A model generated the notes under the pieces. It worked only from the letters and a program-made list of their open reading frames with translations. It did not search any database and was not told the origin of the DNA. DNA of 52,262 bases from a virus (lineage: Duplodnaviria > Caudoviricetes), in the IMG/VR virus record IMGVR_UViG_3300038372_000007, positions 1-52,262 of that record; one strand, written 5' to 3'. Positions 3,512-46,060 of this stretch are shown piece by piece (the stretch's first letter is position 1; the number at the start of each line of letters is the position of its first letter). A program made the position numbers and the translations under genes.

Positions 3512-3512
3512 G

Positions 3513-30100: not shown

Positions 30101-30285
30101 GTGCCGGTGCCCGTAGTCGTGCCGTTGGTGGCCACGGCGTAGATGCCTCTGAGCGTCCCGGTGAGGGCCGTGGAACCCTGGGTGATCTGGGCGTAGACGC
30201 CGCTCGCGCCGTTGGCGACCTCGCAGACCTGCTTCTGGTCGAGACCGCCGACCAGTTGCCTGCCTCGGGTTGCTCTGTTGTACAC
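27160..30285 (-). CDS. 1041-aa repetitive fibre-like protein in the head module
   Basis: A/G/T/S-rich beta strands with internal repeats. AAGGAGG RBS. Confidence 0.7.
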   Translation of the reverse strand: MYNRATRGRQLVGGLDQKQVCEVANGASGVYAQITQGSTALTGTLRGIYAVATNGTTTGTGTIRGAEIKARAADPSGNGANIDGLTGVYVSVDVKTKTGTTIRGFEVSLDGANGGSSTLAQGLVIFNNSSAAQTTSIAVDVNGGTPTDHKAFTSDFRLQNGALIDNAVSGVLAFTVAAITFSGTLNVVGNFSVNTTKFTVNATSADLSSYNQEADATGTTWTVKKSRAAGAACSNNDVLLDIIAQGMNATPALVTVAELKAILTDKTAGSEDGSLSFLTAVNGALAERLSIADVVNSTVNFQVGTDKFVVTASSGATVLKSTFGAGTNGTTFTVAADGSLAIATTGFTVSAAGAVVAASTVKSTGDFTVGASKFVVTAASGNTLLKGTIGAGTNGTEFTVAADGSIAVVSTMFTVSAAGAVNAKGAVAFGANLTEFGISTAGDITSYNKEADASGTYWISKKSRAAGAVCVATDTIYQLDFQGMNATPALKTVGNMVAQIMNVGAGTESGRIFFSTMFGGAAASVRLELMADVTVVLPEAAGATSFIVTDSAAATRFSVNSLGDIASKNIEVDATGVTWTATKARAAAVCSANDVIWQLIASGMNTTPAQKAVVNLKALMTGVTAGAEAGAFTVETVTGGATIAEVFRVDGTGIVLPATVTRGIRVGSSATASGSGVALNATNYQGSGFFADDGGVAMTAGSTESVMVRHILTKVVAGGIAVSASALHASQWVYANYTGIGNLSGVWAHFLIPTGVTIDNSAGARAIVSALHASLDLASGSTLAASSQAAGVSVSGNLGGTITGVASGVRVLAPSAGNWTYGIDLNGMGTPTADVRFRNAATLNNSAAGALDLALGTIAGTDADNGLGITLTDSTTFGTGVGNAVSLLVTAGGSRTGGASTRFNGILDQVTVAGTGNINGMYIRMPLSGSPNLATNLVSGLVVDMKELGATDYFSNIFLHKFNTTKGTGLDAFIVCALQELGVAKTGIYFQGINLPDNFLTIQPGGARDMLVAAEPTGTTKRYLKVDIDGVAYAIICNSVA

Positions 30286-30367: not shown

Positions 30368-30706
30368 CTATCTCCCTAAGACACAGGCCCCAGGGGGGGC
30401 TACCTCCTGGAGCATCTTCTCCTCCCGCTCCTCGCGGGCGTCCTGCTGAACCGGACTCAGAGCGCGGCCGGAGTGCCGCTTCTTGCCGTGGGCGTCCCTC
30501 TCCGCGAAGCCGATGAACTCCGCCCCGCATGCGGCGCAGACGAAGGTCTCCGCGTGCTTCTGGAACGCCGAATCCACGACGCCGAAGTAGCCGAGGCGCA
30601 CGAGCTTCTCGTCGTTCCTAGCCCCGACTAGTTCGGTTATCTGCCCCCGGTCCAGCTCCTTGCCGGCGTACTCGAAGGGCCGCTTGGCCCAGTACCGTTT
30701 GGCCAT
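30368..30706 (-). CDS. Hypothetical protein with a C2H2-like zinc finger
   Basis: FVCAACGAEF...RDAHGKKRH. Confidence 0.65.
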   Translation of the reverse strand: MAKRYWAKRPFEYAGKELDRGQITELVGARNDEKLVRLGYFGVVDSAFQKHAETFVCAACGAEFIGFAERDAHGKKRHSGRALSPVQQDAREEREEKMLQEVAPPGACVLGR

Positions 30707-31662
30707 TACACGATCACCGCCGAAGCGTAGAGCCCGGCATCAGCGCCGACTCTGCGCTGGTCGAAGTACGTGTTGCCCTCTATGATGTCCACCTCGCGCT
30801 CCTCGTCCCTCATGCGCTTGATGTACTGGAGCGCGTTGGCCACGACCTGCCAGACGAAGGTGTAGCAGGCAGCCGGGGTCATGAGGCTCGGAGTCGCGGG
30901 GACATAGAGCATCAGGGCGTTCTTGCCCCAGATGCGGGTGTACGTCACGCTGGCCTCAGCCGTGCCCTCGGCCGTGGCGGTGTAGAGAGCCTTGCCGATG
31001 AACACCCTGTCGAGCTCAGCCAGGGTCTTGAACAGGTCGAGAGACACTTGCCCCTTCTGCGTGTACTTGATCGTGTCCACGAGGTCGGGGTGCCACTTGA
31101 GTATGCTCCAGACCTGCTTGCCCATGACGAACGTTCCCGGCTCGCGGCCGATCAGGGCCTCGACGGTGTCCCGCCAGTCCGTTATGTCGGTGAGCGGGGA
31201 GCTGTTCGCGTAGTCGCTCCACTTCGTGAAGTCCGTGGTGCCGACCTTGTTGGTCGTCCAAACACTGGTCGTGAACAGGGTCGACGCGAAGTTCCGCTCC
31301 CTCCTGAGCTGGATCTTGTCCGTCACGAACTCCGTGGCCTCACGGTCGAGGTTGAACGGCGCGTCCGCGTTGGCGCGATCCTGGTCGGCGATCTCCTTGC
31401 GGTAGCTGTATTCCGGGCAGAAGTACGTGTTCGTGAGGTCAACCGTCCAGCCGCCGCCCTCCGACTTCGTTCCGGGAGCCCTCAATTTCGCTTCGTCGCG
31501 GAACCAGTGGGACTTGTCGTACTGCGGGATGAAGTCCGATTGCTTCTTTACTTGCACGATGGGGCAAATCTGGTCGGCGATGTATTCCAGGTTCTTGTAG
31601 CCGACCGAGATGTTGGTGAGCAATCCGTCTACGTGCAGATCACTGCCTAGAGGTCCAGGCAT
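30706..31662 (-). CDS. Major capsid protein (lambda gpE-like family)
   Basis: DGLLTNISVGYKN...IADQICP, RAPG, KWSD...PLTDI and synteny. Confidence 0.9.
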   Translation of the reverse strand: MPGPLGSDLHVDGLLTNISVGYKNLEYIADQICPIVQVKKQSDFIPQYDKSHWFRDEAKLRAPGTKSEGGGWTVDLTNTYFCPEYSYRKEIADQDRANADAPFNLDREATEFVTDKIQLRRERNFASTLFTTSVWTTNKVGTTDFTKWSDYANSSPLTDITDWRDTVEALIGREPGTFVMGKQVWSILKWHPDLVDTIKYTQKGQVSLDLFKTLAELDRVFIGKALYTATAEGTAEASVTYTRIWGKNALMLYVPATPSLMTPAACYTFVWQVVANALQYIKRMRDEEREVDIIEGNTYFDQRRVGADAGLYASAVIV

Positions 31663-31697: not shown

Positions 31698-32084
31698 CTA
31701 TACGTTGAGCTGGAACGGGCCGGTCAGCTTCACGCGGATGATGGTCCCGAGCGCGGTGGATGCATCCAGGGCCTGGCCCAGGACGTAGTCCTTGTTCGTG
31801 GACTTCTTGATCCCATGGCCGCTCGCATCGGTCCCGATCCAGTTCCCGACGCTGATACCCGTGCCACTGCCGTCCGAGTACACCTTGGAGATGCCAAGGA
31901 ACATCACGGCTGCGGCTTCATCCTCGTCGGGTTCGTTCTGCAAGACGCCGTAGGGAATGTCCCCCGCGCCGTCGCAAACGTCAACCTGGTCCGCTGCGCT
32001 CAGCTCCACGATGTGGTACTGGCAGGCGGTCAGGTCGTTCTCAGCTTTTGCCGAGTGAGTCCACAGACTGAACTCGGTCGCCAT
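31698..32084 (-). CDS. Capsid cement/decoration protein (DUF2190-like)
   Basis: GVLQN, GISKV, GTDASG and GQAL. Precedes the MCP. Confidence 0.75.
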   Translation of the reverse strand: MATEFSLWTHSAKAENDLTACQYHIVELSAADQVDVCDGAGDIPYGVLQNEPDEDEAAAVMFLGISKVYSDGSGTGISVGNWIGTDASGHGIKKSTNKDYVLGQALDASTALGTIIRVKLTGPFQLNV

Positions 32085-32120: not shown

Positions 32121-33059
32121 CTATACCTTGACTACCGTTTCTTTCTTGTACTGCTCGTAAAGCTCGGGGTGCTCGGCCATGACCTTGCCCATAGCCTCGG
32201 CCGAAGTCGCCTTCGCGTCCTTCTGGACGATGCCGGCCACCATCTGCATGACCTTCTCGGTCGCAGACCCGGCTACCGGCGCGCCGCCGCCCCTGCCGAG
32301 CTCCGCGAACAGCTGGCCCTTGGCGATGGCTTCGCTGGACGCCTTGAGCACGGGGTAGAGCTTCGCGTAGAGCGCGGGGTCCTTTTCCTCGATGCCCTTG
32401 AGGACCGCGCCGAGGTCCTCGGCCTTGGCCCCCGGAAGGTCCGCCAGTTCTGCCGCTGCCTTCTCGACGTACTCCTTCAGGACGCGCTTGTCGCGCTCTT
32501 CCTTGGCCACTTTCTCGGCCTCGATGGCGCGCTTGGTAATGGCCTCGTTCTCTTTCCAGAGGGCCTCGATGGCCGGCCGGACAGCCTCGGGAACGCCGGA
32601 GAAGTCCATCGTACCGTCGGCTTTCTTGACGGGGAAGGTGTACTTATCCTTGTCCTTGTCCGCCTGCTTCTTGGCCTCTTCGACCTTCTTGGCCTCTTCC
32701 TCTTGCTTCTTCTTGTCTTCCTCGTCTTTCTGCTTCTGCGCCGGCTCAGGGTATCCGTAGCCGCCCAGCTCAGCCAGGGTCTTCAGGACATCCTTCGGCA
32801 GTTCGTCCTTGTACGCGCCGAGCAGCCTGAGAGCGCCCTTGACAGCGTTCTGGCCCTTCTCCGAGAGCTTGGCCGCCTTGAGCACCTTGTCCACCTTTTC
32901 CTCATCCTCGAGATCCGTCTCAAGGACTGCCTTCAGGATCGCTTCGTCCAACATCCCAGATTCCTCCTCAGACTTCAAGATGAGAAACTTTTTCCTATTT
33001 GCCATCTTAGGCACCATCGCCACCTCAAGGGCGTCGAGGTCCTTAAGCCTTTGCGTCAT
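32121..33059 (-). CDS. Capsid scaffolding protein
   Basis: K/E-rich coiled coil with EVAMVPKMANRKKFLILK. Lies between the protease and cement/MCP genes. Confidence 0.75.
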   Translation of the reverse strand: MTQRLKDLDALEVAMVPKMANRKKFLILKSEEESGMLDEAILKAVLETDLEDEEKVDKVLKAAKLSEKGQNAVKGALRLLGAYKDELPKDVLKTLAELGGYGYPEPAQKQKDEEDKKKQEEEAKKVEEAKKQADKDKDKYTFPVKKADGTMDFSGVPEAVRPAIEALWKENEAITKRAIEAEKVAKEERDKRVLKEYVEKAAAELADLPGAKAEDLGAVLKGIEEKDPALYAKLYPVLKASSEAIAKGQLFAELGRGGGAPVAGSATEKVMQMVAGIVQKDAKATSAEAMGKVMAEHPELYEQYKKETVVKV

Positions 33060-36000
33060 GCGACCGCCTCCCGAACTCCGAAACCTCCGACAGAGAAGCC
33101 TTGATATTCGCCCTGCTTGATGGCGGACCAAAGCTTGCTGTCAGAGACATGTACCCCCAACACCCAGCTCCCCTTCTTCACCTTCTGACCCCCCATTTCG
33201 AACGCATCGGGGGCCACGTAGGACTCGACCACTTCGGCGTCGGCCTTCTTCGAATGCCGGTCGCTGATTACCCGCGACTTCACGAGGAAACGGTGCGCCG
33301 CCTTCTCGATCTCATCGGCGGAGATCACATCGCCCTGCGTGTCAACAGTCTCAGGTTCAAGCACCACGCCGTAGACCAACTGCTTCTCATCGTCGGCCTT
33401 GAGGATCTGGGCGAAGTACTCTTTGGCTACCCTGGCGGAGGTCACGTCTATCAGCCTCGGTTTGCCACCTTCCTCGGGGTCGCGCCAGATCAGGTGCCGT
33501 TGTCCCTTGCCGCGAAGCTCGCTCGTCACATCAGCGAGGTCGTGGGCCTTGGCATAAGGCGTTTGCGAGGTTGGCTTATCTATCAGCCAGACTCTCCGCC
33601 CGCCGATAGGCGCGAACTCGACGAGGAACCGGCCCTTGAGCTTCTCCCCGTGGAGGAATACCTCGAACATGTGCTCCCGCCAGCAGCCCATCTCGTAGGC
33701 GCCGCGGTCGTAAGCGAAGAACTTGCTGTACTTCTCGCTGGTCGCCCCGACGCCGCCGGGCTCAGTCACCATCGGTTTTCCAACACCGACATCGAGCCAG
33801 GCTGAGGGCTGAGCCAGCTTGAACTGCCCTTGCAGGTTGTCGTCCTGCGGGAGCGTCGTCAGGCGGTCGCCGCCCGCCCTGCGGTTGTCTTGCGTCGTGC
33901 CCAGGAACACGCTGAAGCCCCAGAGTTTCCCATCGGCTTCAAAGCGCAGGTCACCGTGCAGGCTGTGGGAGGTGTCGAGCAGCTCCTTCTCATCGAGCTT
34001 GCTCTCGTCCTCGGAGAGCCCGCGAAAGTGATGGTGATAGGTATAACGCCCTTTGCCATCGGGCGGGAACATCCGAAACCAGTTGTCAGCCCAGAACTTG
34101 GCCGCGGCCTCGGCCGTGGTCTCGCCCTCGTCGTCGGCCTTCTCAATGGTGCCAGTCTTGAGCCATCGGGCCAGTGCCCTATCCCAGGCGTCATCGCTCC
34201 AGCCTAGTTCCTTGACCTGAGCCTTGCCAAGAACCTTATCGAGCGGAGGCTCGCAGTTGAATGCCCCAACATCCGGCATCTTCACCGCAATCCACCGGGC
34301 TTTACCGCTTTCCACAAGGTAGTACCGCTCGCCCCAGCCATCGTTGATCCGCCAGATGGAGCGACCACTCTCCGAAGCCACTTCCCTTGTGCTGTGGCGC
34401 TCGACATTCTCCCCGGAGTCCCTCATGGTTGACGCATAAGCTTCCTCGACCATGGCCTTCGGATCGGCCTTCTTCACTTCTTCCAGCGCCCGCCCTATCT
34501 GCTTGAGCTTCCGCGCCAGCTCGCCGGAGTCGCCGAACCTACGGATCGCGGAGGGGTGAGGCAGCGTGAAGTCCGCCCGGTCGCCCAGCGCCGCCTTAGC
34601 CGTCTGGCCCAGGGCCACCACGATACCGGGCTGCACCTCGTCAAGTTGCCTGGCAAGCCACGGCTTCCACTCCTCGACTTCCGCAGGAGTAGGTTCGCGG
34701 ACGTTGCCCTTCTCGTCGGTAAGGTAGAGGGGCACGGTGTTGGTCAAGAAAACATCCTTGCGGCTGAGGCCGAGGGGCGTCAGGTACGACTCGTTCAGCA
34801 CCGCGCCGGCAGGACCCACGAAAGGCTCGCCCCGGGCGGCCTCGGTCGCTCCAGGGGATGCCCCGACGAACATGATCCTGGCATCCTTGGGCCCGGCGCC
34901 GGGCACGATCTCGCCCACGGACTTTTGCAGGACCTGGCCGCGCTCGGCTACGTCGATGGCCTGGGCCGCGGTGTACGGCTCCTTGCGCGTGTCGTCCACG
35001 TCCACCGGCCGCGCCCCGAGCCACGCGAGGTGCTTCTTCTCCTCGTCGGGAAGGAGTTCCAGGATTTCGACCGTTATCACATCGCTGACCTGGGCCTTGA
35101 CCTGGCTGGTCGAGAACGTCTTCCCCAGGTCGATGTATTCCTTGTCCCCGACCTTCCGGGTGTTCTTCCAGTCCATGCCCACGCTCGGCAGGAGGCCGCA
35201 ATAGTAGTTCACCGTACCGGGAGTCTTGGTCTGCTGGACTTCCAGCACCTTCACTTTGAGCTCGCAAATTTTCTTGAGCTTACTCCAAGAATCCGTTACC
35301 CCGTCCAGCTCGTACTTCCCGCTCGCCGTCTTAGCCACGAGACCCTCGGAGCGGTCCTGGCTGAACGCCCACCTGGCCGCCACCTTGAGCTCGGGCAGCG
35401 TCTCGACCCAGCGGACCTCGGTGATGCCGAAGCCGGTCTTGCCCTTGAGGTGCTTCTTGTCGAACTCCTCAAGGCTCTCTCGCCGCTCCTCGAAGGGCTT
35501 GTCGTGCAAGTCCTCCTGCCAGTACGGCAGGTCAAAGGCGGTGAGCACCGGCGTCTCGTCCTCAGCGAACTCCGGCTTGTCGGCGTTGAACCGCATGAGG
35601 TCGGGCCTTGGCTCCCGCTTGCCGCCCCTCAGGATCCCGATGTCGCAGTCCAGGATGAAGTCGGAGTCGACCTTCTCCAGCGCGGCTTTGAGTCCGGGGA
35701 ACTTGCCGAGTTGGTCCTTGCCCATCTGGCCCTCGAACCAGAGTTCGACGCGGGAGGCCTTGCGGATCGCCAGGGACCGGAAGCCATTCAGCTTCGGTTC
35801 AACATCCGCCTTGCCCTTATCCTTCGCCCACTTCTCCCAGAGCTCGTCTACCGTGTAGAGTTCGGTGTACAGCGCCACCTGCGGCTTCGGAGGGACGAAC
35901 CTGTCGAAGGGTTCCAGCGCCGCCTTACTCACGCCTTCCGGCTTGCGCAGGATGCCTCGGACGTACACGAGGTCGCCGTTCTCGATTTCCTCGAGCTTCT

Positions 36001-37888
36001 CGACCTCGAACTTCGGGCGGCCTTCGAGGAGGTTATCCTGCGTCCAGAAGGCGAAGGCGGACTTGTTCCACCAGGAGCGGTGAGAGGGATGAGCGAATGC
36101 ACCCTCGCCCTTCGTGCTCGGCACCTCGAACACGAACCGCCCTCCCGGCTTGAGCACCCGGTGGACCTCCGCCATGATGCGCTCCTTGTCCGAGAGGTGC
36201 TCCAGGACGTGATTGGCGCGGACCTCGCTGGCGGAGGCGTCGGGGAGAGGAATCCCGGATTCCAGGTCCGCTACCTTGTCGACCTTCGGGCCGGGGATCT
36301 TGTCGATACCCAGATAACCATCGGGCCGGGAATCGCGACAGCCCAGATCGACCCGAAGGGCTTCTGCCTTGGCAACCCGCGCTGGCTTGAAGTTCATCAC
36401 CAGGAGTTCGTGGCCTGTCCTCCAATGTCGCGATGCTGGCATCCCCGGGCCCGTCGCAGTGCGAGGCACTTCCACTTCCTTGATCGTCCACGCCTTCGAT
36501 GCCTCGACCAGGTCTAGCGATCCCTTGTTGCAGGACAGGATGAACTTGCCCCTCACGGAGGCGAGCACCTTGACCAGTTTCTGAAAGTGCTCGGTCTCAT
36601 CCTTGTCCCCAGGGTAATCCACGGTGTCGCCCGCCGGATAAGGCGGGTCGAGGTAGAAGAGCGTCGACGGCGCATCGTGCTCCTTGATGACCGATAGCGC
36701 GTCCATGTTGAGCAGGGCCACGTCTTTGAGACGTTCCTGCAGTTTCTGTAACCGCTCGATGGAGACGTTGGCGACATCGCCGATGCCGCGGGCATGTATG
36801 AAGTTCCCTGCCTTGGCGTGTGCGCCCTGAAATCCAAACCGCGAGATGTACCACACACGGTAAGCGTGGTCTGCTAACCCCTGGGGATGCGAGTTGGCGA
36901 GCCGGTCGAACCGTTCTTCATTCGCTTCCCAGTTCCGCCCCGCAAAGGCGGTCAACTCTTCATCAGAGGCGCCCTTGATGAACCTGTAGACGCTCATGAT
37001 CCCGGCGTCGCTGTCGTTCAGGACTTCCTTGGGGGACGGCTCCTTTGCCCAGAAGACCTTCGCCCCGCCTGCGTAAGGCTCGACATAGGCGGTGTGCTCC
37101 GGGAATAACGCAATAATCTCGTCCGCGATCCTGGACTTGCCGCCCACGACGTGGATCGGCCCGAGCAGGCCGCCCTCCTTGACCACCTGCCGCTTCGGGT
37201 CCTCGCGCCTGAGCACCAGACTATAGCAGGGCACGAAGTCAGCGTGGCTCCCCTGCGGCGAGTCGATGAAGTGCAGGGTCCCCTTCTTCTCCGGGTCCAG
37301 CACCTTCCTCACCGGCAGCCATACGTTGTCCGACTGGATCAGGAAGTGCTCGCCGCCGCCGTCGCGGTTGGCGCGGATCAGCACGTCTATGTCGTTCGGC
37401 TTCTCCTTGCTCACGGCGGAGCCTACCACGGAGACGAAATTGGGCACGACCACGACCTCCGCAGGCAGGTTTGCAAGCTTCGCCTCGATGCTCTGGGCCT
37501 TCTTCACGCCCTGCAGCTTGCGGGCTTCCTGGACGAGGTCGGAGGACTCGTCGTAGTGGATTCCCCGACGTTCCAGTTCTTCCAGCGCGAACAGGGCGGC
37601 GTTGACCACGCCCTCGACCGGGTCTCCCCGCTTCTTGGCCGCGCCGTACCACTGATGCAGCCTAAGCCAGGCCATCCGCACATCATCCTCCGGCGCGTCC
37701 TTGAGCTTCTCCGGCCGGATGTCAGCGAGCGCCATCTTCTCCAGGAACGATGGCTCCTCAGGCTCGCGCCAGCGGGCCTTGCCGCCGGCCGAGGGCAGGG
37801 CGAGCTTGTGCAACTCCGTCATCAGCCACGACGGGAGATACTTCTTGGCGCTATTGAGAAGTGCTTCGAGGTACTCGGTCGTGGGCAC
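33056..37888 (-). CDS. ~1610-aa polyprotein: NTase-like + Dam methylase + class I SAM MTase + ATP-dependent DNA ligase + UDG + LigD-type phosphoesterase + XkdF-like prohead protease
   Basis: Motifs in order: VVGS..DIDV; GGKS/EPYAGG/DPPY; DLGC/HVLEH/VLKPGG; EPKLNG/EGLVAK/WSKLK; GASPG/PFVG/TNTV/HPS; HHH/HGDLRFE/DRG; VYGVVLEP/VESY/GFSVGG. GTG start after GGAGG overlaps the MuF stop. Confidence 0.88.
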   Translation of the reverse strand: MPTTEYLEALLNSAKKYLPSWLMTELHKLALPSAGGKARWREPEEPSFLEKMALADIRPEKLKDAPEDDVRMAWLRLHQWYGAAKKRGDPVEGVVNAALFALEELERRGIHYDESSDLVQEARKLQGVKKAQSIEAKLANLPAEVVVVPNFVSVVGSAVSKEKPNDIDVLIRANRDGGGEHFLIQSDNVWLPVRKVLDPEKKGTLHFIDSPQGSHADFVPCYSLVLRREDPKRQVVKEGGLLGPIHVVGGKSRIADEIIALFPEHTAYVEPYAGGAKVFWAKEPSPKEVLNDSDAGIMSVYRFIKGASDEELTAFAGRNWEANEERFDRLANSHPQGLADHAYRVWYISRFGFQGAHAKAGNFIHARGIGDVANVSIERLQKLQERLKDVALLNMDALSVIKEHDAPSTLFYLDPPYPAGDTVDYPGDKDETEHFQKLVKVLASVRGKFILSCNKGSLDLVEASKAWTIKEVEVPRTATGPGMPASRHWRTGHELLVMNFKPARVAKAEALRVDLGCRDSRPDGYLGIDKIPGPKVDKVADLESGIPLPDASASEVRANHVLEHLSDKERIMAEVHRVLKPGGRFVFEVPSTKGEGAFAHPSHRSWWNKSAFAFWTQDNLLEGRPKFEVEKLEEIENGDLVYVRGILRKPEGVSKAALEPFDRFVPPKPQVALYTELYTVDELWEKWAKDKGKADVEPKLNGFRSLAIRKASRVELWFEGQMGKDQLGKFPGLKAALEKVDSDFILDCDIGILRGGKREPRPDLMRFNADKPEFAEDETPVLTAFDLPYWQEDLHDKPFEERRESLEEFDKKHLKGKTGFGITEVRWVETLPELKVAARWAFSQDRSEGLVAKTASGKYELDGVTDSWSKLKKICELKVKVLEVQQTKTPGTVNYYCGLLPSVGMDWKNTRKVGDKEYIDLGKTFSTSQVKAQVSDVITVEILELLPDEEKKHLAWLGARPVDVDDTRKEPYTAAQAIDVAERGQVLQKSVGEIVPGAGPKDARIMFVGASPGATEAARGEPFVGPAGAVLNESYLTPLGLSRKDVFLTNTVPLYLTDEKGNVREPTPAEVEEWKPWLARQLDEVQPGIVVALGQTAKAALGDRADFTLPHPSAIRRFGDSGELARKLKQIGRALEEVKKADPKAMVEEAYASTMRDSGENVERHSTREVASESGRSIWRINDGWGERYYLVESGKARWIAVKMPDVGAFNCEPPLDKVLGKAQVKELGWSDDAWDRALARWLKTGTIEKADDEGETTAEAAAKFWADNWFRMFPPDGKGRYTYHHHFRGLSEDESKLDEKELLDTSHSLHGDLRFEADGKLWGFSVFLGTTQDNRRAGGDRLTTLPQDDNLQGQFKLAQPSAWLDVGVGKPMVTEPGGVGATSEKYSKFFAYDRGAYEMGCWREHMFEVFLHGEKLKGRFLVEFAPIGGRRVWLIDKPTSQTPYAKAHDLADVTSELRGKGQRHLIWRDPEEGGKPRLIDVTSARVAKEYFAQILKADDEKQLVYGVVLEPETVDTQGDVISADEIEKAAHRFLVKSRVISDRHSKKADAEVVESYVAPDAFEMGGQKVKKGSWVLGVHVSDSKLWSAIKQGEYQGFSVGGFGVREAVA

Positions 37889-38790
37889 TAGTCTCGCCTC
37901 CGCGAAAGACCTGCTGCGCACCGGCATCCTGGATGAGCCGGGGGACCTGTAAGCCCTCCTGGAAAGACTCCGCCGATGGGAGCCCGCTCGCCGTCCAGGT
38001 CGAGGCACTCCTGGCACGCTCTGTCGTCCGGCGTGGTTATCCACTCCATCTCGAACTCGTCGGGGTCGATGAGGCCGGCATCCACCGCCTGCTGCCAGCT
38101 TTCTTGCTGACCGGCGTTGGCTGCAGAGATGGTTTCCGTCCGTCCGATGAGTTCCGCCCTGTCTCTCAGCAACCGCCCCGCGTACCTCTCCGCCTGCCAG
38201 TCCGCCCGTTCCTGGGTGATGCCCGCCTCCAACTGCCGCGCCTTGAGGTTCTCGACCGCACGGCTCTGCCTTTCGGTGAGGCCGATGTGGCCCTGGATCA
38301 TCTTCGCCTGCTGGTAGGGATGGCCGCCCTGCTCGAAGGCCCGCTGCACGATATCCTTCACGGCGGCTATCGTCTCGTCGCTGACCTGCCTGATGAGCTC
38401 TCCAGTGTGCTGGGTGACGAAGCTGACCGCCCTCGGGTTCAGCACGTCGAAGGTGAGGCTCACCTTGAACTGCCGCTCCATCCTGGCGGCTACCGACGTG
38501 CCGACCGCAGCCACCAGACCCTGGAGGATGTTCTGGACCTTGACCGCGTCCATGCCGAAGTCCTGGACGCCGACTATCGCCTGGGCCTTGACAAGGTCAC
38601 GGGCCTGCAGGGCGTCCGCCAACTCACTGACAGCGACCCTGCCCTTCGCCCGCTCGACCGACTCCAGGAACTCCTGTTGCAGAGGCTCCAGCCTGGCGTC
38701 CGCCAGCCGGTGTATCAGCCGCCACTCCGGTTCCTGGGCCTGGGCCGCGGCCTTCTTGATGTTGACCGGCGCAGGCCTCACGACGAACAT
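37888..38790 (-). CDS. MuF / SPP1 gp7-like minor head protein
   Basis: RAELIGRTE, WITTPDDRACQEC and PPAHPGCRC. Confidence 0.9.
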   Translation of the reverse strand: MFVVRPAPVNIKKAAAQAQEPEWRLIHRLADARLEPLQQEFLESVERAKGRVAVSELADALQARDLVKAQAIVGVQDFGMDAVKVQNILQGLVAAVGTSVAARMERQFKVSLTFDVLNPRAVSFVTQHTGELIRQVSDETIAAVKDIVQRAFEQGGHPYQQAKMIQGHIGLTERQSRAVENLKARQLEAGITQERADWQAERYAGRLLRDRAELIGRTETISAANAGQQESWQQAVDAGLIDPDEFEMEWITTPDDRACQECLDLDGERAPIGGVFPGGLTGPPAHPGCRCAAGLSRRRD

Positions 38791-40073
38791 CAGTCCTCAG
38801 TCCCCTTGGCCGGCATGTGCGCGACCTGGCGGATGTACTTCTCCAGCGTCTCGTCGGGGAAGAGCGGCGCACCGGCCAGCGCCATCTGCGCGAGGAAGGC
38901 ACCGAGCTCGGCCAAGTCGACGTCTTCGAGGTCCCCGTGGGCCAAAACCGGGTATTCCTTGACCTTGAAGCTGTTGAGTTTGAAGAGCCTCGGTATGGCG
39001 TCCGTGTTGAACACGTCCTGGACCTCGTCCAGGAACGCGCCGATGGCGACGGCGAAGAGGTGGGTCTTGCTGGATGCCAGGGCGAAGCTCCCCACCTTCT
39101 GGCTGCCGAGCAAGATGAAGTCAGCCAAACAGGTGGCCGCGATCTGCGTGTTGTAGCGGTTGATCACCGTGTCCGTCGCGAACTGCCTCGTGCCGCCGGT
39201 CGAGAGGAGGGTCAAGTCGTAAGTCTTGTTCCCGCTCGCGTCGTAGACCAGCGGCATCAGTATGCCTTCCTGCTCGTCGCGCCGGATGCTCGTGGCGAGG
39301 GTCTTGTAGGCGTCCCGGACCGTGACCTCGGCGGCGGTGGTCGGGTTGGCGACGTTAGACGGCACCCAGACGACGGGCAGGCCCGCCAGGTCGCGCTCGA
39401 CGCCGATACCCTCGATGACCTCTATATTTTTCTTAAAATACCATGATCTGTAAGAATTGCGTAAAATCGAGCGCCCCTCGGGATTCCCCTTCGTCGTCTC
39501 GGTGCGGAAGAGCAGCGCCTTCTCGATGGGGATCGTCCTCAGCTTGTAGTCCGGCGGGGCGCTCTGCGTCATGGCCGTGAGATCGCCGGCATCGTTGAAT
39601 ACCCACTCCAGGAGGGAGGTCTGAGCCCGGATGGGAATCTTGCGCCAGCCGATGCGTCCGTCGTCGTACTTGCTCCGCTTCGTCGGGTCTGTGGAGTCCC
39701 CGCCACGGCGCTTGTAGACCAACTCACAGAAGGCCCAGCCGTACACCAGCATGGACAGGGCTTCGCTGATCACGTCCTGCCAGGACTCCGACATGTCGCC
39801 ACGACATGACTCCAGGAACTGGGCCGCGTCCCTGGCCTCCGCCGATTCGTCTGCCGGGTCCACGCGCCAGTCCACCTGCCGGCAGAGCATGCGAATGGCG
39901 AATAGGACGGCGCCGATTATGGGGTCGTTGTCGGACATCTCCCGGTAGACCGTGGCCGCCTTGGTCCCGGCCAGTTCGGTGAGCCATTCCTCGGAGATGT
40001 AGCCGCCCCACCTATTTAAGCCGGTGCTGCCTAATTCCACCAGGGGCTTGAACTTCACCTGCTCTTCGGCCAA
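38790..40073 (-). CDS. Portal protein (Mu gp29/DUF935-like)
   Basis: Follows TerL. GNPEGRSILR, IGVERDLAGLP and GSFALA. Confidence 0.88.
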   Translation of the reverse strand: MAEEQVKFKPLVELGSTGLNRWGGYISEEWLTELAGTKAATVYREMSDNDPIIGAVLFAIRMLCRQVDWRVDPADESAEARDAAQFLESCRGDMSESWQDVISEALSMLVYGWAFCELVYKRRGGDSTDPTKRSKYDDGRIGWRKIPIRAQTSLLEWVFNDAGDLTAMTQSAPPDYKLRTIPIEKALLFRTETTKGNPEGRSILRNSYRSWYFKKNIEVIEGIGVERDLAGLPVVWVPSNVANPTTAAEVTVRDAYKTLATSIRRDEQEGILMPLVYDASGNKTYDLTLLSTGGTRQFATDTVINRYNTQIAATCLADFILLGSQKVGSFALASSKTHLFAVAIGAFLDEVQDVFNTDAIPRLFKLNSFKVKEYPVLAHGDLEDVDLAELGAFLAQMALAGAPLFPDETLEKYIRQVAHMPAKGTED

Positions 40074-40076
40074 TGG

Positions 40077-41453
40077 TCAACGCCCCTTCCACTTGCTGCG
40101 GGACTCAAGAGTGACGGGTAACACCAAGGGCGCGGCCGGCGAGCGGATATACGAATACACCGCATACCTCGTCGCGTCCATGCCGTGGTCGTTCACCTTG
40201 GCGGGTTGCTCCTTGGCGCTCCGGCCCTCGGCGGCCGGCAACCAGGCGTACCCCTGGATCTCGTCCTCCGTGCAGGTCGGCTTGCCCTCGGCCTCCAGCG
40301 TGGTGTCCTTCTCGACCGAGCCGTCAGCGATGAAGTACAATCGCGGCCGGCCCCGCACCTCGTCCACCTGCAGGAGCGAGTACACGGACTGGATGCCTGG
40401 GCTGACATCCTTGACCGCCGCGACCGTGGGCACCCCGTGCCTCTCCAACGTAGCGCGGTCCTCCGCATCGTGGTCAGCGTATGTCGCGAGTACCCTCTCG
40501 CCGACGCTGAGGCGCACGATGTCTTTCGCCAGGTCCTCGACCAGCCTCCGCGTCCGACATATCTCCCGGTAGCGGAACCAGTCGCCGTCCGGGGATATGG
40601 CCCACCACTGGCAGACGAAGGGGTTCGCGTACCCGAAGTCCACGCTCCGAACCCGCGTCCAGTCCGCGGGAATCCGCTTGTACCCCGTCAGATCCTCGAA
40701 CTGCCCCCAGGTGATGAGGTGGGTCAGCGGGTCGTAAACGTCGTAGACCAGGCCCTCGAAGCCGACCCACTTGCCCAGGACGAAGCGGTCGCGGTAGCGG
40801 CCCTTGAAGCCGTCGAGCCTGACCCGGTAGTCCTCTGGATTGCAGGTGTTCTCCAGCGCGTTAGCCTCGACCACCTCGCCCAACCGCTCCTCGAAGAAAT
40901 GCTTGTATGCCCAATGCTTCGGGTGCGACGGGTTGGTGGCGCTGAACGCCTGGCGGAAAGGCAGGACCTTCCCGGCGGCCAGTTTCGTCAGCCTCAGCCG
41001 GCCGAGGAGCATCGTGTAGTCGTCCTCGGTCAGCTCGATGATCTCGTCGACGCCCACGAACCCGAGTTCGAGCGAGCCCCACTTCTGCGGGTCGTCCAGA
41101 CCGCCGAAGATGAGCTGACTGCCATTGACAAGCGTGATCAAGTCCTCGGACTTGTTGTATTTCAGGATGAACTCCGGCGGGCAGGCGTCCTTGAAGAAAC
41201 TCCTGAGCGTCGTATGCGTCAGGCTCTTTCGCGTCTTGCGGAAGATGCCGCCGAAGTTGCCCGGGTACTTGAGGCTGAGGAACAGCGCCTTCTCGCAGAG
41301 GACCCGCGACTTCCCCGCGCCGAATGCCCCGGAGTACATGAGCTCAGGCGCCATCGACTCCATGAACCGCTTTTGCCCGGGGAAAGCGACGAACCTGTGA
41401 GCTGGGCGGATCACCTTACTGCGGGTCAGGGTACTTGCTCTGGTCGAAGTCAT
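40077..41453 (-). CDS. terL: Terminase large subunit
   Basis: Walker A GAFGAGKS, Walker B GVDE, ATNP, and nuclease motifs DFG and DHGMDATRY. Confidence 0.95.
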   Translation of the reverse strand: MTSTRASTLTRSKVIRPAHRFVAFPGQKRFMESMAPELMYSGAFGAGKSRVLCEKALFLSLKYPGNFGGIFRKTRKSLTHTTLRSFFKDACPPEFILKYNKSEDLITLVNGSQLIFGGLDDPQKWGSLELGFVGVDEIIELTEDDYTMLLGRLRLTKLAAGKVLPFRQAFSATNPSHPKHWAYKHFFEERLGEVVEANALENTCNPEDYRVRLDGFKGRYRDRFVLGKWVGFEGLVYDVYDPLTHLITWGQFEDLTGYKRIPADWTRVRSVDFGYANPFVCQWWAISPDGDWFRYREICRTRRLVEDLAKDIVRLSVGERVLATYADHDAEDRATLERHGVPTVAAVKDVSPGIQSVYSLLQVDEVRGRPRLYFIADGSVEKDTTLEAEGKPTCTEDEIQGYAWLPAAEGRSAKEQPAKVNDHGMDATRYAVYSYIRSPAAPLVLPVTLESRSKWKGR

Positions 41454-43350: not shown

Positions 43351-43493
43351 GCCAGCACCTCCCCTACCACGAGCAGGATCACCGCGACCACGATCCCCTG
43401 GATCCACCAGAAGGGATCCCGGCCCGAGGTTTCGTACTCGTGGCCCTTCACGCCGGCGAACATGCCGGCAAGGAGGCAGAGGGCGGGGATCAT
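43347..43493 (-). CDS. Small membrane protein (48 aa, not in the ORF track)
   Basis: MIPALCLLAGMFAG...FWWIQGIVVAVILLVVGEVLA*, coupled on both sides. Confidence 0.5.
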   Translation of the reverse strand: MIPALCLLAGMFAGVKGHEYETSGRDPFWWIQGIVVAVILLVVGEVLA

Positions 43494-44305
43494 GCCAACT
43501 CCTCGAACAGCGCTGGCTGTTCTGCTTCGTCGTCCTGTGCCTTGGCCTGCTTCTTGTAGTTCTTCGGCATACTGCCCTTTAGAGCCGCACCCACTCCAGC
43601 TGACGTAAGAAGGCTCTTCCGCAGCGCTTCCCAGGGTCCGAAGCTGCCGTCCTCAAGCACACGGCAAAGAGCGTCCACAACGGGTACGCCCTCGGGCGTC
43701 GTCATGCTCAGGATCCCGGGCACGTTCTCCATGCAGAGCACCTTGGGCTGGATCTCCAGCACTAGACGCGCGAACTCGAACACGAGACTGTTTCGCGGGT
43801 CCATGACGTTGCGCTTGCCACTGACGCTGAATCCCTGGCACGGAGGACTGCCGACCACCAGGTCGACTTCGCCCACCTTGCGGCCCAGGACTTTGAGGAT
43901 CCGCTCGCCGCTTACCTTGCGGATGTCGCCCAGGAAGAAATGGCGGATGGGCGGGATCTCGGGGTTGTGGCGTATCCACCAGGAGCCGGACACCGGCATC
44001 TGAATCAGCCCGCCTTGCTTCTGGAGTCTCCGCATCTCGCCCTCCACGGTCTTGGTGGCGCGTTCCTTATCCTCCGGCTCCAGGTACTGGATGTCCACAG
44101 GGTAACTGCCGAGGTTGGAAAGATAGGTGAGCATACAATCGGGGTCATTGTCCAGCCCGGCCAGCACCTCGTAGCCCGCTTGCAAAAGTCCCAGCGAGAA
44201 GCCGCCAGCCCCGCAGAACAAATCGATGGCGGTAGGACGCCTGGCCTGGCGGGTCGCGCCCTCTGGTACGATTAGCCCGGACCCGGAACGCACCCAGGCA
44301 CTCAT
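43490..44305 (-). CDS. DNA (cytosine-5)-methyltransferase, N-terminal half only
   Basis: DLFCGAGG, GSPPCQGFS, DPRN and ENVPG are present. Motif VIII, the TRD and motifs IX-X are missing. Confidence 0.85.
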   Translation of the reverse strand: MSAWVRSGSGLIVPEGATRQARRPTAIDLFCGAGGFSLGLLQAGYEVLAGLDNDPDCMLTYLSNLGSYPVDIQYLEPEDKERATKTVEGEMRRLQKQGGLIQMPVSGSWWIRHNPEIPPIRHFFLGDIRKVSGERILKVLGRKVGEVDLVVGSPPCQGFSVSGKRNVMDPRNSLVFEFARLVLEIQPKVLCMENVPGILSMTTPEGVPVVDALCRVLEDGSFGPWEALRKSLLTSAGVGAALKGSMPKNYKKQAKAQDDEAEQPALFEELA

Positions 44306-45500: not shown

Positions 45501-46060
45501 CGTGACACCGCCTCCGCTCTCTCCTCGCTCCGACCCGGATCTGTCTGCCGGCGGTACATAGAGATCAGGTGCATTGCGTATACCGGCCCTCGGCCTTCCA
45601 ACAAGACCGCCAAGAAGAACGCCCGCCACGTAGCCGATCCTCGCATGCGCGCCAACTTCACCGCGGCCGGGATCTTGTGCGGTGCCCAGGGTTGCTGTTT
45701 CGGCGCCTTCGGTAGCTTGGGCCTCTGCCCCCGCTCCCTGCGCGGCAGCCCGGCCCGGTCGGTGATGCGGTACACGACGGCGCTCCCAACATGGAACATG
45801 GCCCGCATCACGCAGATAGGCGTCCCCTTCCGGTACTCAGCGAGGATCCCGGCGGTCTTGCCCTTGTCTGCACCCTTGATGCTTGACAGGGTTTTGGCTT
45901 GAGGCCCCTGTCGCCGGATGATGCCTACATTGCGGAGCCACCTGCCAACGGTTGCGTATTTGTGGTGATGCTTCGACGCGAGGCCTCGGATCGTCGCGCC
46001 TGCCGAGTATTCGGCGGCCATCGCATCTCGGTCAGACCATGTAAGCCAGGGTTCAGTCAT
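45497..46060 (-). CDS. Basic HTH-repeat hypothetical protein
   Basis: Two YxxGxxI HTH-like repeats. Confidence 0.55.
   Translation of the reverse strand: MTEPWLTWSDRDAMAAEYSAGATIRGLASKHHHKYATVGRWLRNVGIIRRQGPQAKTLSSIKGADKGKTAGILAEYRKGTPICVMRAMFHVGSAVVYRITDRAGLPRRERGQRPKLPKAPKQQPWAPHKIPAAVKLARMRGSATWRAFFLAVLLEGRGPVYAMHLISMYRRQTDPGRSEERAEAVSR

What the first reader, a model, noticed from the sequence alone, without database searches (positions are those of the whole stretch)
33395..37510. A [VIL]-x-K-[ASE] motif marks every domain boundary: candidate self-cleaving polyprotein
Seen: the linkers read GVKK/AQ (before NTase), QVVK/EG (before Dam), RVAK/AE (before MTase), GVSK/AA (before ligase), VLQK/SV (before UDG), EVKK/AD (before the unknown domain), TIEK/AD (before phosphoesterase), and RVAK/EY plus QILK/AD (before protease). 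The same motif recurs in the scaffold (LILK/SE, AILK/AV, KVLK/AA, PVKK/AD, YVEK/AA, PVLK/AS) and near the MuF N-terminus (NIKK/AA). Known: HK97-type prohead protease cleaves after Lys. Inference: the C-terminal protease cuts the fusion into free enzymes inside the prohead. The motif may also define interchangeable cargo cassettes.
Basis: partly seen in the sequence, partly recalled or inferred. Interest (0 to 1): 0.9.

Follow-up and report, generated by a model that had tools for sequence, protein, structure and literature searches.

The report
Self-cleaving phage head cargo polyprotein
A phage head gene encodes one 1610-residue chain of DNA-modifying and DNA-repair enzymes ending in a head protease, and a short hydrophobic-x-lysine signal sits at each enzyme boundary, most likely marking where the protease cuts the chain into separate enzymes.

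Summary
The minus-strand ORF 33056-37888 encodes a 1610-aa polyprotein: helical N-domain, NTase-like, Dam, SAM-MTase, ATP DNA ligase, UDG, unknown domain, LigD-PE-like, C-terminal XkdF (Peptidase_S78_2) protease. It lies between MuF and scaffold genes. All nine linker motifs and the scaffold and MuF motifs exist as quoted.

The motif is non-random. In the window, 2 of 69 ORFs are enriched: the polyprotein (15 vs 6.3) and the scaffold (9 vs 3.0). In 120 homologues, homology breakpoints coincide with [VIL]-x-K (351 of 520 vs 153 expected), and V.K/I.K top an unbiased pattern scan. Cassette losses in close relatives run exactly K-to-K. Sixty-four related scaffolds carry four times the expected motif count. 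So do scaffolds of three unrelated XkdF phages. Lambda Nu3 and P22 gp8 do not.

Best reading (0.7): [VIL]-x-K, then often A/S, is the XkdF protease's cleavage site. The polyprotein is cut into free enzymes during head assembly, and the sites delimit exchangeable cargo cassettes. Cleavage, its location and injection remain untested.

Caveats: P1' is loose. Six of the 15 strict matches lie inside the predicted domain segments. QILK/AD is a strand of the protease fold.

This is a new variant of the known polyvalent-protein theme.

The parts
33056..37888 (-). Polyprotein CDS, 1610 aa plus TGA stop. GTG start at 37888-37886 overlaps the MuF stop by 1 nt. P0002 numbering equals long-ORF numbering minus 52.
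   Evidence: Pfam
37499..37888 (-). N-terminal helical domain (aa 1-130), conserved in most family members. Candidate head-targeting or adaptor module (inferred).
   Evidence: AF2 helices 4-139, pLDDT mostly 80-96; consensus in A1
37178..37498 (-). NTase-like segment (aa 131-237) with invariant G156 S157 ... D166 x D168.
   Evidence: invariants; no Pfam hit; weak Atlas lead to NTP_transf_2 clusters, score 0.85; poorly modelled
36368..37177 (-). Dam-type N6-adenine DNA methyltransferase cassette (aa 238-507).
   Evidence: PF02086 71 bits; TIGR00571 below cut-off
35924..36367 (-). Class I SAM methyltransferase cassette (aa 508-655).
   Evidence: PF08241 40 bits
34922..35923 (-). ATP-dependent DNA ligase cassette (aa 656-989), LigD/NHEJ-like.
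   Evidence: PF01068; NCBIfam ligase models below cut-off; Foldseek top hits are DNA ligases, 3rr5 E 4e-16
34469..34921 (-). Uracil-DNA glycosylase superfamily cassette (aa 990-1140), family 4 / UdgX-like.
   Evidence: PF03167 90 bits; TIGR03914 and TIGR00758 below cut-offs
34139..34468 (-). Unknown alpha/beta cassette (aa 1141-1250). It is absent, exactly K-to-K, from P0003, P0005, P0006 and P0007.
   Evidence: no Atlas hit
33422..34138 (-). LigD 3'-phosphoesterase-like cassette (aa 1251-1489) with invariant H1287 R1289 H1311 D1313 R1315.
   Evidence: PF13298 weak, 17 bits; invariants
33059..33421 (-). XkdF-type prohead serine protease domain (aa 1490-1610). H1545 and S1599 are invariant in 48 sequences.
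   Evidence: PF14550 111 bits, E 5e-32; phrog_3017 head maturation protease
37496..37507 (-). Site GVKK/AQ (K130).
   Evidence: a [VIL]xK within 5 aa in 25 of 47 homologues against 20% by chance; lies at a helix end
37175..37186 (-). Site QVVK/EG (K237).
   Evidence: 36 of 47; 57 HSP ends in bin 230-239; Dam cassette indels start here
36365..36376 (-). Site RVAK/AE (K507).
   Evidence: pLDDT below 50 at 505-507; 10 of 26; indel edge
35921..35932 (-). Site GVSK/AA (K655).
   Evidence: 35 of 47; 46 of 54 ligase-bearing proteins have [VIL]xK in the 18 aa before the ligase anchor, whatever cassette lies upstream; pLDDT below 50
34919..34930 (-). Site VLQK/SV (K989).
   Evidence: 32 of 46; pLDDT dip to 74-77
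34466..34477 (-). Site EVKK/AD (K1140).
   Evidence: 31 of 37; indel edge; lies at a helix end with pLDDT 76-86
34136..34147 (-). Site TIEK/AD (K1250).
   Evidence: 41 of 47; pLDDT below 50 at model residues 601-607; indel edge
33419..33430 (-). Site RVAK/EY (K1489), the likely cut that frees the protease.
   Evidence: 31 of 47; pLDDT below 50 at model residues 839-842
33395..33406 (-). QILK/AD (K1497). A motif match inside the first beta-strand of the protease fold, so cleavage here is doubtful.
   Evidence: 44 of 47; strand E844-850 of the model; the same string type starts the protease domain of Bacillus B83 and Lactococcus 28201
32121..33059 (-). Scaffold-like protein, 312 aa. Its ATG overlaps the polyprotein TGA (ATGA). 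It is K-rich and has 9 strict motif matches.
   Evidence: homologues
37888..38790 (-). MuF-like head morphogenesis protein, with NIKK/AA at residues 10-15 (window 38746-38763).
   Evidence: PF04233; N-terminal motif in 16 of 16 distinct homologues
38790..40073 (-). Mu-type portal protein (context).
   Evidence: PF06074
30706..31662 (-). Major capsid protein, gpE-like, with no motif enrichment (context).
   Evidence: phrog_1005; PF03864
31698..32084 (-). Cement / decoration protein (context).
   Evidence: PF09956

Best explanation
The gene encodes a head-module 'polyvalent' cargo polyprotein. Its C-terminal XkdF-type serine protease is the phage's only recognisable prohead protease and sits in the canonical slot portal - MuF - protease - scaffold - capsid.

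The protease recognises a hydrophobic residue (V, I or L) at P3 and Lys at P1, often followed by Ala or Ser. During head assembly it makes three kinds of cut:
- It cuts the polyprotein at the inter-cassette linkers: after K237, K507, K655, K989, K1140, K1250 and K1489, probably also K130. This releases a helical N-domain, an NTase-like unit, two DNA methyltransferases, a DNA ligase, a UDG, an unknown domain, a 3'-phosphoesterase-like unit and the protease.
- It chops the scaffold, which has about 15 sites, roughly one per 20 residues, into small peptides.
- It trims a short N-terminal peptide from MuF.

Each cassette carries its own C-terminal site. Cassettes can therefore be gained, lost or swapped in frame without disturbing processing.

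Shown here: the architecture, motif placement, conservation, enrichment and exact K-to-K indels. Inferred: that cleavage happens, that this protease does it, that it happens in the prohead, and that the enzymes are kept in the capsid and enter the host with the DNA.
For: Architecture and context. Translational coupling on both sides. Candidate catalytic His1545 and Ser1599 are invariant in 48 sequences.

Motif at breakpoints.
- HSP ends of 119 homologues pile up at the seven sites.
- Of 520 breakpoints in 120 proteins, 351 have [VIL]xK within 8 aa against 153 expected. For the 4-residue motif the figures are 160 against 50.5.
- Among 1200 gapped residue pairs, V.K (z 17), I.K (z 13), KA (z 10.9) and L.K (z 10.7) rank first in the breakpoint windows.

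Exact cassette edges. P0003 lacks the MTase and the unknown domain, P0004 and P0006 lack Dam, and P0007 lacks Dam plus MTase. In each case the sequence joins at K|. P0003 keeps two sites 6 aa apart where the MTase cassette is gone.

Conservation. The nine boundary sites are kept within 5 aa in 38-94% of 26-47 homologues, against 20% by chance. Internal matches are kept in 17-55%.

Accessibility. K507, K655, K1250 and K1489 fall in pLDDT<50 linkers. K237 falls in a low-confidence stretch. K989 falls in a pLDDT dip.

Other substrates.
- 64 scaffold homologues: [VIL]xK 971 against 469 expected, and the 4-mer 568 against 144. All 64 of 64 are above expectation. Ratios for other classes are MCP 0.87, portal 0.88 and TerL 0.53.
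- The enrichment is specific to K at +2. The ratio for [VIL]xK is 2.09, for [VIL]xR 1.13 and for [VIL]xE 1.09. For K at other spacings the ratios are 1.08, 0.76 and 0.61.
- Sites turn over while density is kept: 30% of sites lie in columns shared by fewer than 20% of 60 scaffolds.
- MuF N-termini: 16 of 16 have the motif. Controls: portal 15 of 45, MCP 15 of 48.

Independent XkdF phages. Bacillus B83 gp09 has 12 against 2.3 expected, Lactococcus 28201 gp33 has 11 against 2.0, and Pseudomonas KIL1 gp149 has 12 against 2.2. Each has p<0.002, and their MCP, portal and MuF are not enriched.

Negative controls. Lambda Nu3 has 0 against 0.2 expected and P22 gp8 has 1 against 1.0.
Against: No experimental cleavage data were found for any XkdF protease.

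The sequences are homologous, so the counts are not independent events, and shuffles ignore relatedness.

The motif alone is not sufficient. Six of the 15 strict matches in this protein lie inside the predicted domain segments rather than at a boundary. Two of them recur in about half of the homologues: K710 in 26 of 47 and K1529 in 21 of 47.

Some boundary sites are weaker. K1497 is a beta-strand of the protease fold. K1140 and K130 sit at helix ends with moderate to high pLDDT. K507 is kept in only 10 of 26 homologues and K130 in 25 of 47.

No capsid-targeting signal has been identified. The protease domain ends 8-10 residues after the Ser motif, with no scaffold-like tail, so how the 176-kDa chain enters the prohead is unknown.

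The NTase-like region modelled poorly.
Confidence: 0.7

Rival explanations
1. The cleavage is real but cytoplasmic. The polyprotein is an expression device, like a picornavirus polyprotein. The protease frees the methylases and repair enzymes in the producing cell, where they act on replicated DNA before packaging. Only the protease, or nothing, enters the prohead.
For: No head-targeting signal was found, and the protease domain has no C-terminal tail. Methylases and ligase need SAM or ATP, which the cytoplasm supplies (established biochemistry). The gene is co-expressed with late genes.
Against: The gene is translationally coupled to MuF and scaffold. The first 48 residues of one homologue, P0023, match the C-terminal MuF motif, which suggests a MuF fusion. 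Published work predicts that MuF-linked polyvalent proteins are packaged and injected (PMC5512222, passages). A polyvalent protein was detected in phi24B virions (bioRxiv 10.64898/2026.04.10.717836, passage). That prohead proteases generally act at the high local concentration inside proheads is recalled general knowledge.
Confidence: 0.17
2. There is no cleavage. [VIL]-x-K is a structural cap or linker habit of these cassettes, or a by-product of in-frame recombination, and the chain works as one multi-enzyme protein.
For: Some matches are structural. K1497 is a strand, and K710 and K1529 lie inside folds. N4 virion RNAP is packaged uncut although it has a peptidase domain (PMC5512222, passage).
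Against: The same motif is enriched 4-fold in scaffolds of this family and in scaffolds of three unrelated XkdF phages, but not in lambda or P22 scaffolds. It is specific to Lys at +2. It is conserved at MuF N-termini. There is no DNA repeat at the sites beyond AAG GCN, which argues against a recombination signal. The sites sit in low-confidence linkers.
Confidence: 0.1
3. The cuts after Lys are made by a host trypsin-like or other cellular protease, not by the XkdF domain.
For: Staphylococcal phage 80alpha capsid and scaffold proteins are trimmed by the host protease Prp (PMC5744158, passage), so host processing of head proteins has precedent.
Against: The motif's enrichment travels with the XkdF protease across hosts as different as Bacillus, Lactococcus and Pseudomonas. 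It is absent from scaffolds of phages with other proteases or none. The protease domain is the most conserved part of the family.
Confidence: 0.03

Closest known systems
Phage 'polyvalent proteins' (Iyer, Burroughs, Anand, de Souza, Aravind 2017, PMC5512222; passages seen)
   Same: Many enzymatic domains in one polypeptide, encoded among phage head genes and linked to MuF. They are predicted to be packaged and delivered with the DNA. The paper states that an assemblin-like peptidase is always C-terminal in such proteins and probably processes them during assembly.
   Different: The passages I saw describe no cleavage motif or linker grammar. 'linker' and 'UDG' occur 0 times in the text, and 'ligase' occurs only in an RNA-ligase context. 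Here the peptidase is XkdF-type, which the same group later called unrelated to SH/assemblin peptidases (PMC7824862). The cargo is DNA methylation plus DNA repair, not ARTs, RNases or lysozymes. The paper's architecture lists are on an FTP supplement that I could not see and may include such proteins.
Prohead-protease processing of ejection and internal head proteins at a short motif: SPN3US gp245, AXE motif (PMC10052503, passages). T4 gp21 with L/I-x-E sites and capsid-targeting propeptides is recalled, not checked here.
   Same: A head protease recognises a three-residue motif. It removes propeptides from proteins that are packaged and ejected, and several motif copies lie in the parts that are to be degraded.
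   Different: Those motifs end in Glu, and the cargo proteins are separate gene products, each with its own propeptide. Here P1 is Lys, and the cargo units are strung on one chain together with the protease itself.
HK97 gp4 / gp5
   Same: Residue 103 of gp5 is K and residue 104 is S. The 103-residue delta domain holds five [VIL]xK strings. This is compatible with a similar P3-hydrophobic, P1-Lys taste.
   Different: This is another Pfam family (Peptidase_S78 rather than S78_2). The scaffold function is fused to the capsid protein, and there is no enzyme cargo. That K103|S104 is the maturation cut is recalled, not verified here.
XkdF protease-scaffold proteins of isolated phages (Bacillus vB_BtS_B83 gp09, Lactococcus 28201 gp33, Pseudomonas KIL1 gp150/gp149)
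   Same: The protease domain is 43-48% identical in B83 and the Lactococcus phages and 31% in KIL1. The gene position is the same and the scaffold is motif-rich in the same way.
   Different: They carry no enzyme cassettes. In B83 and Lactococcus 28201 the protease is fused to the scaffold instead of to cargo.
Bacterial LigD (ligase + 3'-phosphoesterase + polymerase)
   Same: The ligase cassette's best NCBIfam hits are NHEJ/LigD ligases. A LigD_N-like H..H.D.R signature is invariant.
   Different: All hits are below the family cut-offs. No AEP polymerase domain is present. The domains are separated by putative cleavage sites and embedded in a virion-module protein.

Membership tests
XkdF-type prohead protease (Pfam PF14550, Peptidase_S78_2) | Profile match above the curated cut-off over the whole domain | tested here: met
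   111 bits against a cut-off of 24, profile positions 4-124 of 126
XkdF-type prohead protease (Pfam PF14550, Peptidase_S78_2) | Conserved candidate catalytic His and Ser | tested here: met
   H1545 and S1599 are invariant in 48 aligned sequences. Which residues are catalytic is inferred, because no solved structure was found by sequence.
XkdF-type prohead protease (Pfam PF14550, Peptidase_S78_2) | Head-module position next to a scaffold | tested here: met
   Gene order TerL, portal, MuF, polyprotein, scaffold, cement, MCP
XkdF-type prohead protease (Pfam PF14550, Peptidase_S78_2) | Proteolytic activity and its specificity | not testable with these tools
   Only motif statistics are available
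Polyvalent proteins (Iyer et al. 2017) | 2-15 effector or enzyme domains in one polypeptide of a phage or conjugative element | tested here: met
   Nine segments, six with Pfam matches above cut-off, in a virus record
Polyvalent proteins (Iyer et al. 2017) | Linkage to MuF, portal or other late head genes | tested here: met
   1-nt overlap with the MuF stop; the first 48 residues of P0023 match the C-terminal MuF motif
Polyvalent proteins (Iyer et al. 2017) | Packaging into the virion and delivery to the host | not testable with these tools
   Inference only
ATP-dependent DNA ligase | Adenylation-domain profile, K-x-[DN]-G motif I and ligase fold | tested here: met
   PF01068 47.8 bits against 26.2; motif I anchor used; Foldseek hit 3rr5, E 4e-16
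LigD 3'-phosphoesterase | Profile match above cut-off | tested here: inconclusive
   PF13298 17.3 bits against 31.1. Invariant H, R, H, D, R residues. Some homologues carry precomputed PF13298 hits.
Uracil-DNA glycosylase superfamily, family 4 / UdgX | Superfamily profile; subfamily models | tested here: inconclusive
   PF03167 89.9 bits against 24.3 is met. TIGR00758 at 85.8 against 125.3 and TIGR03914 at 99.2 against 190 are not met.
Dam (D12 class N6-adenine MTase) | Profile match above cut-off | tested here: met
   PF02086 71.1 bits against 22
Pol-beta-type nucleotidyltransferase | Profile match; G-S ... D-x-D signature | tested here: inconclusive
   No Pfam hit. The signature is invariant. 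Atlas lead of 0.85 only.

The most novel reading that the evidence does not exclude
XkdF-type prohead proteases and their [VIL]-x-K sites form a general plug-and-play capsid cargo system. Any enzyme cassette inserted between two sites on the protease-bearing chain is carried into the prohead, cut free, retained with the DNA and injected. This phage lineage uses the system to deliver a ready-made kit at the moment of entry. The kit comprises two methylases, a uracil glycosylase, a 3'-end-cleaning phosphoesterase, a ligase and an NTase. It would protect the genome, repair it, or seal its ends before any phage gene is expressed.
Probability: 0.3. Interest if true: 0.85.

Novelty: new variant of a known kind. 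Interest (0 to 1): 0.72.

Why it matters
It gives a concrete, testable cleavage specificity (hydrophobic at P3, Lys at P1) for a large and biochemically uncharacterised family of phage head proteases.

It explains how a widespread family of giant head-module proteins can be built from interchangeable enzyme cassettes. At least 120 protein clusters and 117 viral contigs were found here.

It points to virion-delivered DNA-repair and methylation enzymes, a cargo class not discussed in the polyvalent-protein passages I read.

Cuts after Lys look like tryptic ends. Routine virion proteomics would therefore miss them, which may be why the pattern has not been reported (my inference).

If confirmed, the motif offers a simple rule for loading foreign enzymes into phage capsids.

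Tried and rejected
Complex prediction of MuF (alignment A4) with the polyprotein N-domain 1-135 returned 'no answer' with score 0.00. It says nothing either way.

The search for related loci with the single protein gave only 4 loci. The alignment query gave 117, of which 80 were kept.

tblastn of the whole polyprotein against 50,697 phage records found no record covering 80% or more of it. The architecture is therefore not in that isolate collection.

Rhizobium phage RHph_TM16 carries the annotation 'DNA methyltransferase/prohead protease', but the gene is only 633 nt and is not a polyprotein.

The PDB sequence search with the protease domain gave 0 hits at E<=1. The Atlas search of the unknown domain gave no usable hit. 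The Atlas search of residues 1-240 gave only sub-0.9 leads.

Foldseek on the 961-residue model returned only ligases, so the unknown domain and the protease fold were not placed.

DNA at the sites shows no shared repeat beyond AAG GCN, so I dropped a recombination-signal reading.

Ten literature searches found no paper on XkdF specificity or on this polyprotein family. The library holds only CC-licensed PMC papers and bioRxiv preprints, and supplements are closed. PMC3709472 (HK97 protease) is not held. The ICP1 paper reports scaffold cleavage products but gives no sites.
Full report
WHAT IS THERE

The window is a virus record of about 62% G+C. On its minus strand lies a canonical head module:
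- large terminase, 40077-41453
- Mu-type portal, 38790-40073
- MuF-like protein, 37888-38790
- a very long ORF
- a K-rich scaffold-like protein, 32121-33059
- a cement protein, 31698-32084
- a gpE-like major capsid protein, 30706-31662

The long ORF is open from 38044. The gene starts at the GTG at 37888-37886. That codon overlaps the MuF TAG by one base and follows a GGAGG. This gives the 1610-residue protein that the protein database also holds (P0002), and homologues begin at the same place. Its TGA overlaps the scaffold ATG as ATGA. Below I use P0002 numbering, which is the long-ORF numbering minus 52.

Pfam places five clear matches on it:
- Dam (PF02086)
- a class I SAM methyltransferase (PF08241)
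- ATP-dependent DNA ligase (PF01068)
- UDG (PF03167)
- at the very C-terminus, the XkdF-type prohead protease (PF14550, 111 bits)

There is also a weak LigD 3'-phosphoesterase match. NCBIfam's best hits are UdgX / family-4 UDG and NHEJ-type ligases, all below their cut-offs. No other protease was seen among the 20 neighbouring proteins I scanned.

THE OBSERVATION

The strict pattern [VIL]-x-K-[ASE] occurs 15 times in the ORF against 6.3 in composition shuffles. It occurs 9 times against 3.0 in the scaffold ORF. Both have p=0.003. These are the only 2 of 69 greedy ORFs of the window below p=0.05. MuF was dropped by the overlap filter in that count.

DOES THE MOTIF MARK BOUNDARIES?

I defined boundaries without using the motif. 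A search with the C-terminal 363 residues returned 120 proteins of 915-2003 aa. Most share the C-terminal protease and carry varying cargo: Dam, other methylases, UDG, ligase, metallo-beta-lactamase fold, GNAT, 2H phosphoesterase, NUDIX, C5 methylase and others.

Four tests then followed.
- BLAST alignments of 119 of these proteins to P0002 end or start in seven narrow piles.
- An all-against-all breakpoint call gave 520 breakpoints in 120 proteins. A [VIL]xK lies within 8 residues of 351 of them, against 153 expected. The four-residue form lies near 160, against 50.5 expected.
- On P0002 itself, 7 of 8 breakpoints lie within 6 residues of a motif lysine. The eighth is the variable N-terminus. 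By my own arithmetic a random position does so with probability of about 0.11.
- I scanned all 1200 residue pairs at spacings 0-2 for enrichment in the breakpoint windows. V.K (z 17), I.K (13), KA (10.9) and L.K (10.7) ranked first.

So the motif emerges without being assumed.

CASSETTES

Pairwise alignments with the five closest relatives show that domain losses run from lysine to lysine.
- P0004 and P0006 lack Dam and join ...VVK| directly to the start of the methyltransferase.
- P0007 lacks Dam and the methyltransferase and joins ...VVK| to the ligase leader.
- P0003, P0005, P0006 and P0007 lack the 110-residue unknown domain and join at or within a few residues of the site lysine to the acidic start of the phosphoesterase-like unit. 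In P0003 the join is exactly at ...V-x-K|.
- P0003 also lacks the methyltransferase and keeps two sites six residues apart, an empty slot.

Across the family, 46 of 54 ligase-bearing proteins have [VIL]xK in the 18 residues before the ligase N-terminal anchor. This holds whether the upstream unit is a methyltransferase, the NTase-like unit, a beta-lactamase-fold domain or something else.

In a 48-sequence alignment, the nine boundary sites are kept within 5 residues in 38-94% of homologues, against 20% by chance:

| Site | Kept | of n |
|---|---|---|
| K130 | 25 | 47 |
| K237 | 36 | 47 |
| K507 | 10 | 26 |
| K655 | 35 | 47 |
| K989 | 32 | 46 |
| K1140 | 31 | 37 |
| K1250 | 41 | 47 |
| K1489 | 31 | 47 |
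| K1497 | 44 | 47 |

The six internal matches are kept in 17-55%. The DNA at the sites shares nothing beyond AAG GCN, so the signal is at the protein level.

STRUCTURE

I folded two AlphaFold2 models with family alignments: residues 650-1610 (mean pLDDT 85.9) and residues 1-665 (77.1).
- K507, K655, K1250 and K1489 fall in segments with pLDDT below 50.
- K237 falls in a long low-confidence stretch.
- K989 falls in a dip to 74-77.
- K1140 and K130 sit at helix ends.
- K1497 (QILK/AD) is in the first beta-strand of the protease domain. The same string type opens the protease domain of unrelated XkdF proteins, so it may be structural rather than a cut site.
- K402, K710, K1529 and K1537 lie in helices or strands. 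K161 and K1222 fall in low-confidence stretches.

Foldseek confirmed the ligase fold (3rr5, E 4e-16) but did not place the unknown domain or the protease.

IS IT A PROTEASE SITE?

The strongest independent evidence comes from the other expected substrates.

In 84 related viral loci I assigned plus-strand ORFs to classes by BLAST to the window's proteins and compared motif counts with composition shuffles.
- Scaffold homologues (n=64) have 971 [VIL]xK against 469 expected. They have 568 four-residue motifs against 144. All 64 are above expectation.
- Ratios for the other classes are capsid protein 0.87, portal 0.88, terminase 0.53, MuF 1.61 and polyprotein 1.82.

The enrichment is specific. The ratio for [VIL]-x-K is 2.09, for [VIL]-x-R 1.13 and for [VIL]-x-E 1.09. 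For Lys at spacings 0, 2 and 3 the ratios are 1.08, 0.76 and 0.61. This argues against a mere helical periodicity.

The 60 distinct scaffolds average 15.3 sites. About half of the sites lie in 11 conserved columns, and 30% lie in columns used by fewer than a fifth of the sequences. So density is maintained while positions turn over.

All 16 distinct MuF homologues whose match reaches the N-terminus have a [VIL]xK in their first 30 residues, against 0.23 per 30-residue window elsewhere in the same proteins. The controls are portal 15 of 45, capsid 15 of 48 and cement 5 of 45.

Three isolated phages with XkdF proteases but no cargo show the same pattern:
- Bacillus vB_BtS_B83 gp09: 12 against 2.3
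- Lactococcus 28201 gp33: 11 against 2.0
- Pseudomonas KIL1 gp149: 12 against 2.2

Each has p<0.002, while their capsid, portal and MuF proteins are not enriched.

Scaffolds of phages with other proteases or none are not enriched: lambda Nu3 has 0 against 0.2 and P22 gp8 has 1 against 1.0. HK97 gp5 has K at 103 and S at 104, and five [VIL]xK strings in its 103-residue delta domain. That K103|S104 is the maturation cut is recalled, not verified here.

MECHANISM

The most likely reading (0.7) is that the XkdF domain cuts after Lys when a V, I or L stands at P3, preferably before A or S. Three things would then happen during head assembly.
- The protease frees the cassettes of its own polyprotein.
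- It shreds the scaffold into roughly 20-residue peptides.
- It trims MuF.

H1545 and S1599 are invariant in 48 sequences and are the candidate catalytic pair.

The following are not shown:
- any cleavage
- whether it is cis or trans
- whether it occurs inside the prohead
- how the chain is recruited
- whether the enzymes stay in the capsid and are injected

The conserved helical N-domain is a candidate adaptor. So is MuF, which is translationally coupled and whose C-terminal motif matches the first 48 residues of one homologue. A structure-based test of MuF with the N-domain gave no verdict (see Tried and rejected).

What the cargo does is also inference. Methylases would protect against restriction. 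The ligase, phosphoesterase and UDG would repair or seal the incoming genome.

COMPARISON WITH WHAT IS KNOWN

The class is the phage 'polyvalent protein' of Iyer et al. 2017 (PMC5512222). In the passages I read, the paper states that an assemblin-like peptidase is always C-terminal in such proteins and probably processes them during assembly. It gives no cleavage motif. The text contains neither 'linker' nor 'UDG'. The same group later described XkdF as unrelated to the SH/assemblin peptidases (PMC7824862).

The nearest experimental analogue is SPN3US gp245. It cuts ejection and head proteins after A-x-E, with several motif copies in the discarded propeptides (PMC10052503). T4 gp21 with L/I-x-E is recalled, not checked here. 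A polyvalent protein has been detected in phi24B virions (bioRxiv 10.64898/2026.04.10.717836).

Ten searches found nothing on XkdF specificity or on this family. They cover only the held library. Supplements, including the architecture lists of the 2017 paper, were not available to me.

VERDICT

This is a new variant of a known kind: a Lys-specific cleavage grammar that delimits interchangeable DNA-modification and DNA-repair cassettes on a protease-bearing head polyprotein. It probably also reveals the specificity of the whole XkdF protease family.

Noticed in passing
window 32970-33059 (-), first ~30 residues of the scaffold; L086:3872-4010; L087:3878-4010; L088:4384-4520: The scaffold N-terminus carries a two-site element (hydrophobic strand ending in V-x-K, then A-N-x-K-K-F and a second h-x-K). 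In Bacillus B83 gp09 and Lactococcus 28201 gp33 the same element lies N-terminal of the XkdF protease domain. In Pseudomonas KIL1 it lies at the start of the separate scaffold. It may tether the protease to the scaffold.
   Followed up: no
P0003 (88% identical relative), junction equivalent to window 35921-36376: Where the methyltransferase cassette is missing, two motif sites remain six residues apart. This is an 'empty slot' between cassettes.
   Followed up: partly
window 38746-38763 (-), MuF residues 10-15: The MuF N-terminus has NIKK/AA. All 16 distinct MuF homologues in related loci have a [VIL]xK in their first 30 residues, which suggests a short MuF propeptide.
   Followed up: yes
P0023 residues 8-48: The first 48 residues of this homologous polyprotein match the C-terminal Cys/His motif of MuF (E 7e-5). 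In some relatives MuF and the polyprotein may therefore be one chain, or the gene call may start inside MuF.
   Followed up: partly
L089:4028-5185 (HK97 gp5): Residue 103 is K and residue 104 is S. The 103-residue delta domain has five [VIL]xK strings, against 8 observed and 4.6 expected for the whole protein. HK97-type proteases may share the P3-hydrophobic, P1-Lys preference.
   Followed up: partly
window 10404-12023 (+), 2585-3577 (-), 3886-6039 (-), 43490-44305 (-), 46057-46923 (-), 48216-49166 (-): The rest of the contig looks like a temperate phage. It has a large serine recombinase, RecT, an SMC-like ATPase, a separate C5 cytosine methylase, a PAPS-reductase-like protein and a DUF5131 protein. 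The phage thus carries a third DNA methylase outside the polyprotein.
   Followed up: no
window 37178-37498 (-), polyprotein residues 131-237: The NTase-like unit has an invariant G-S ... D-x-D signature. It gets no Pfam hit and was modelled with pLDDT below 50. Its activity and fold remain open.
   Followed up: partly
window 27160-30285 (-): A 1041-residue ORF downstream of the head genes has no Pfam match. It is probably a tail component. I did not examine it.
   Followed up: no
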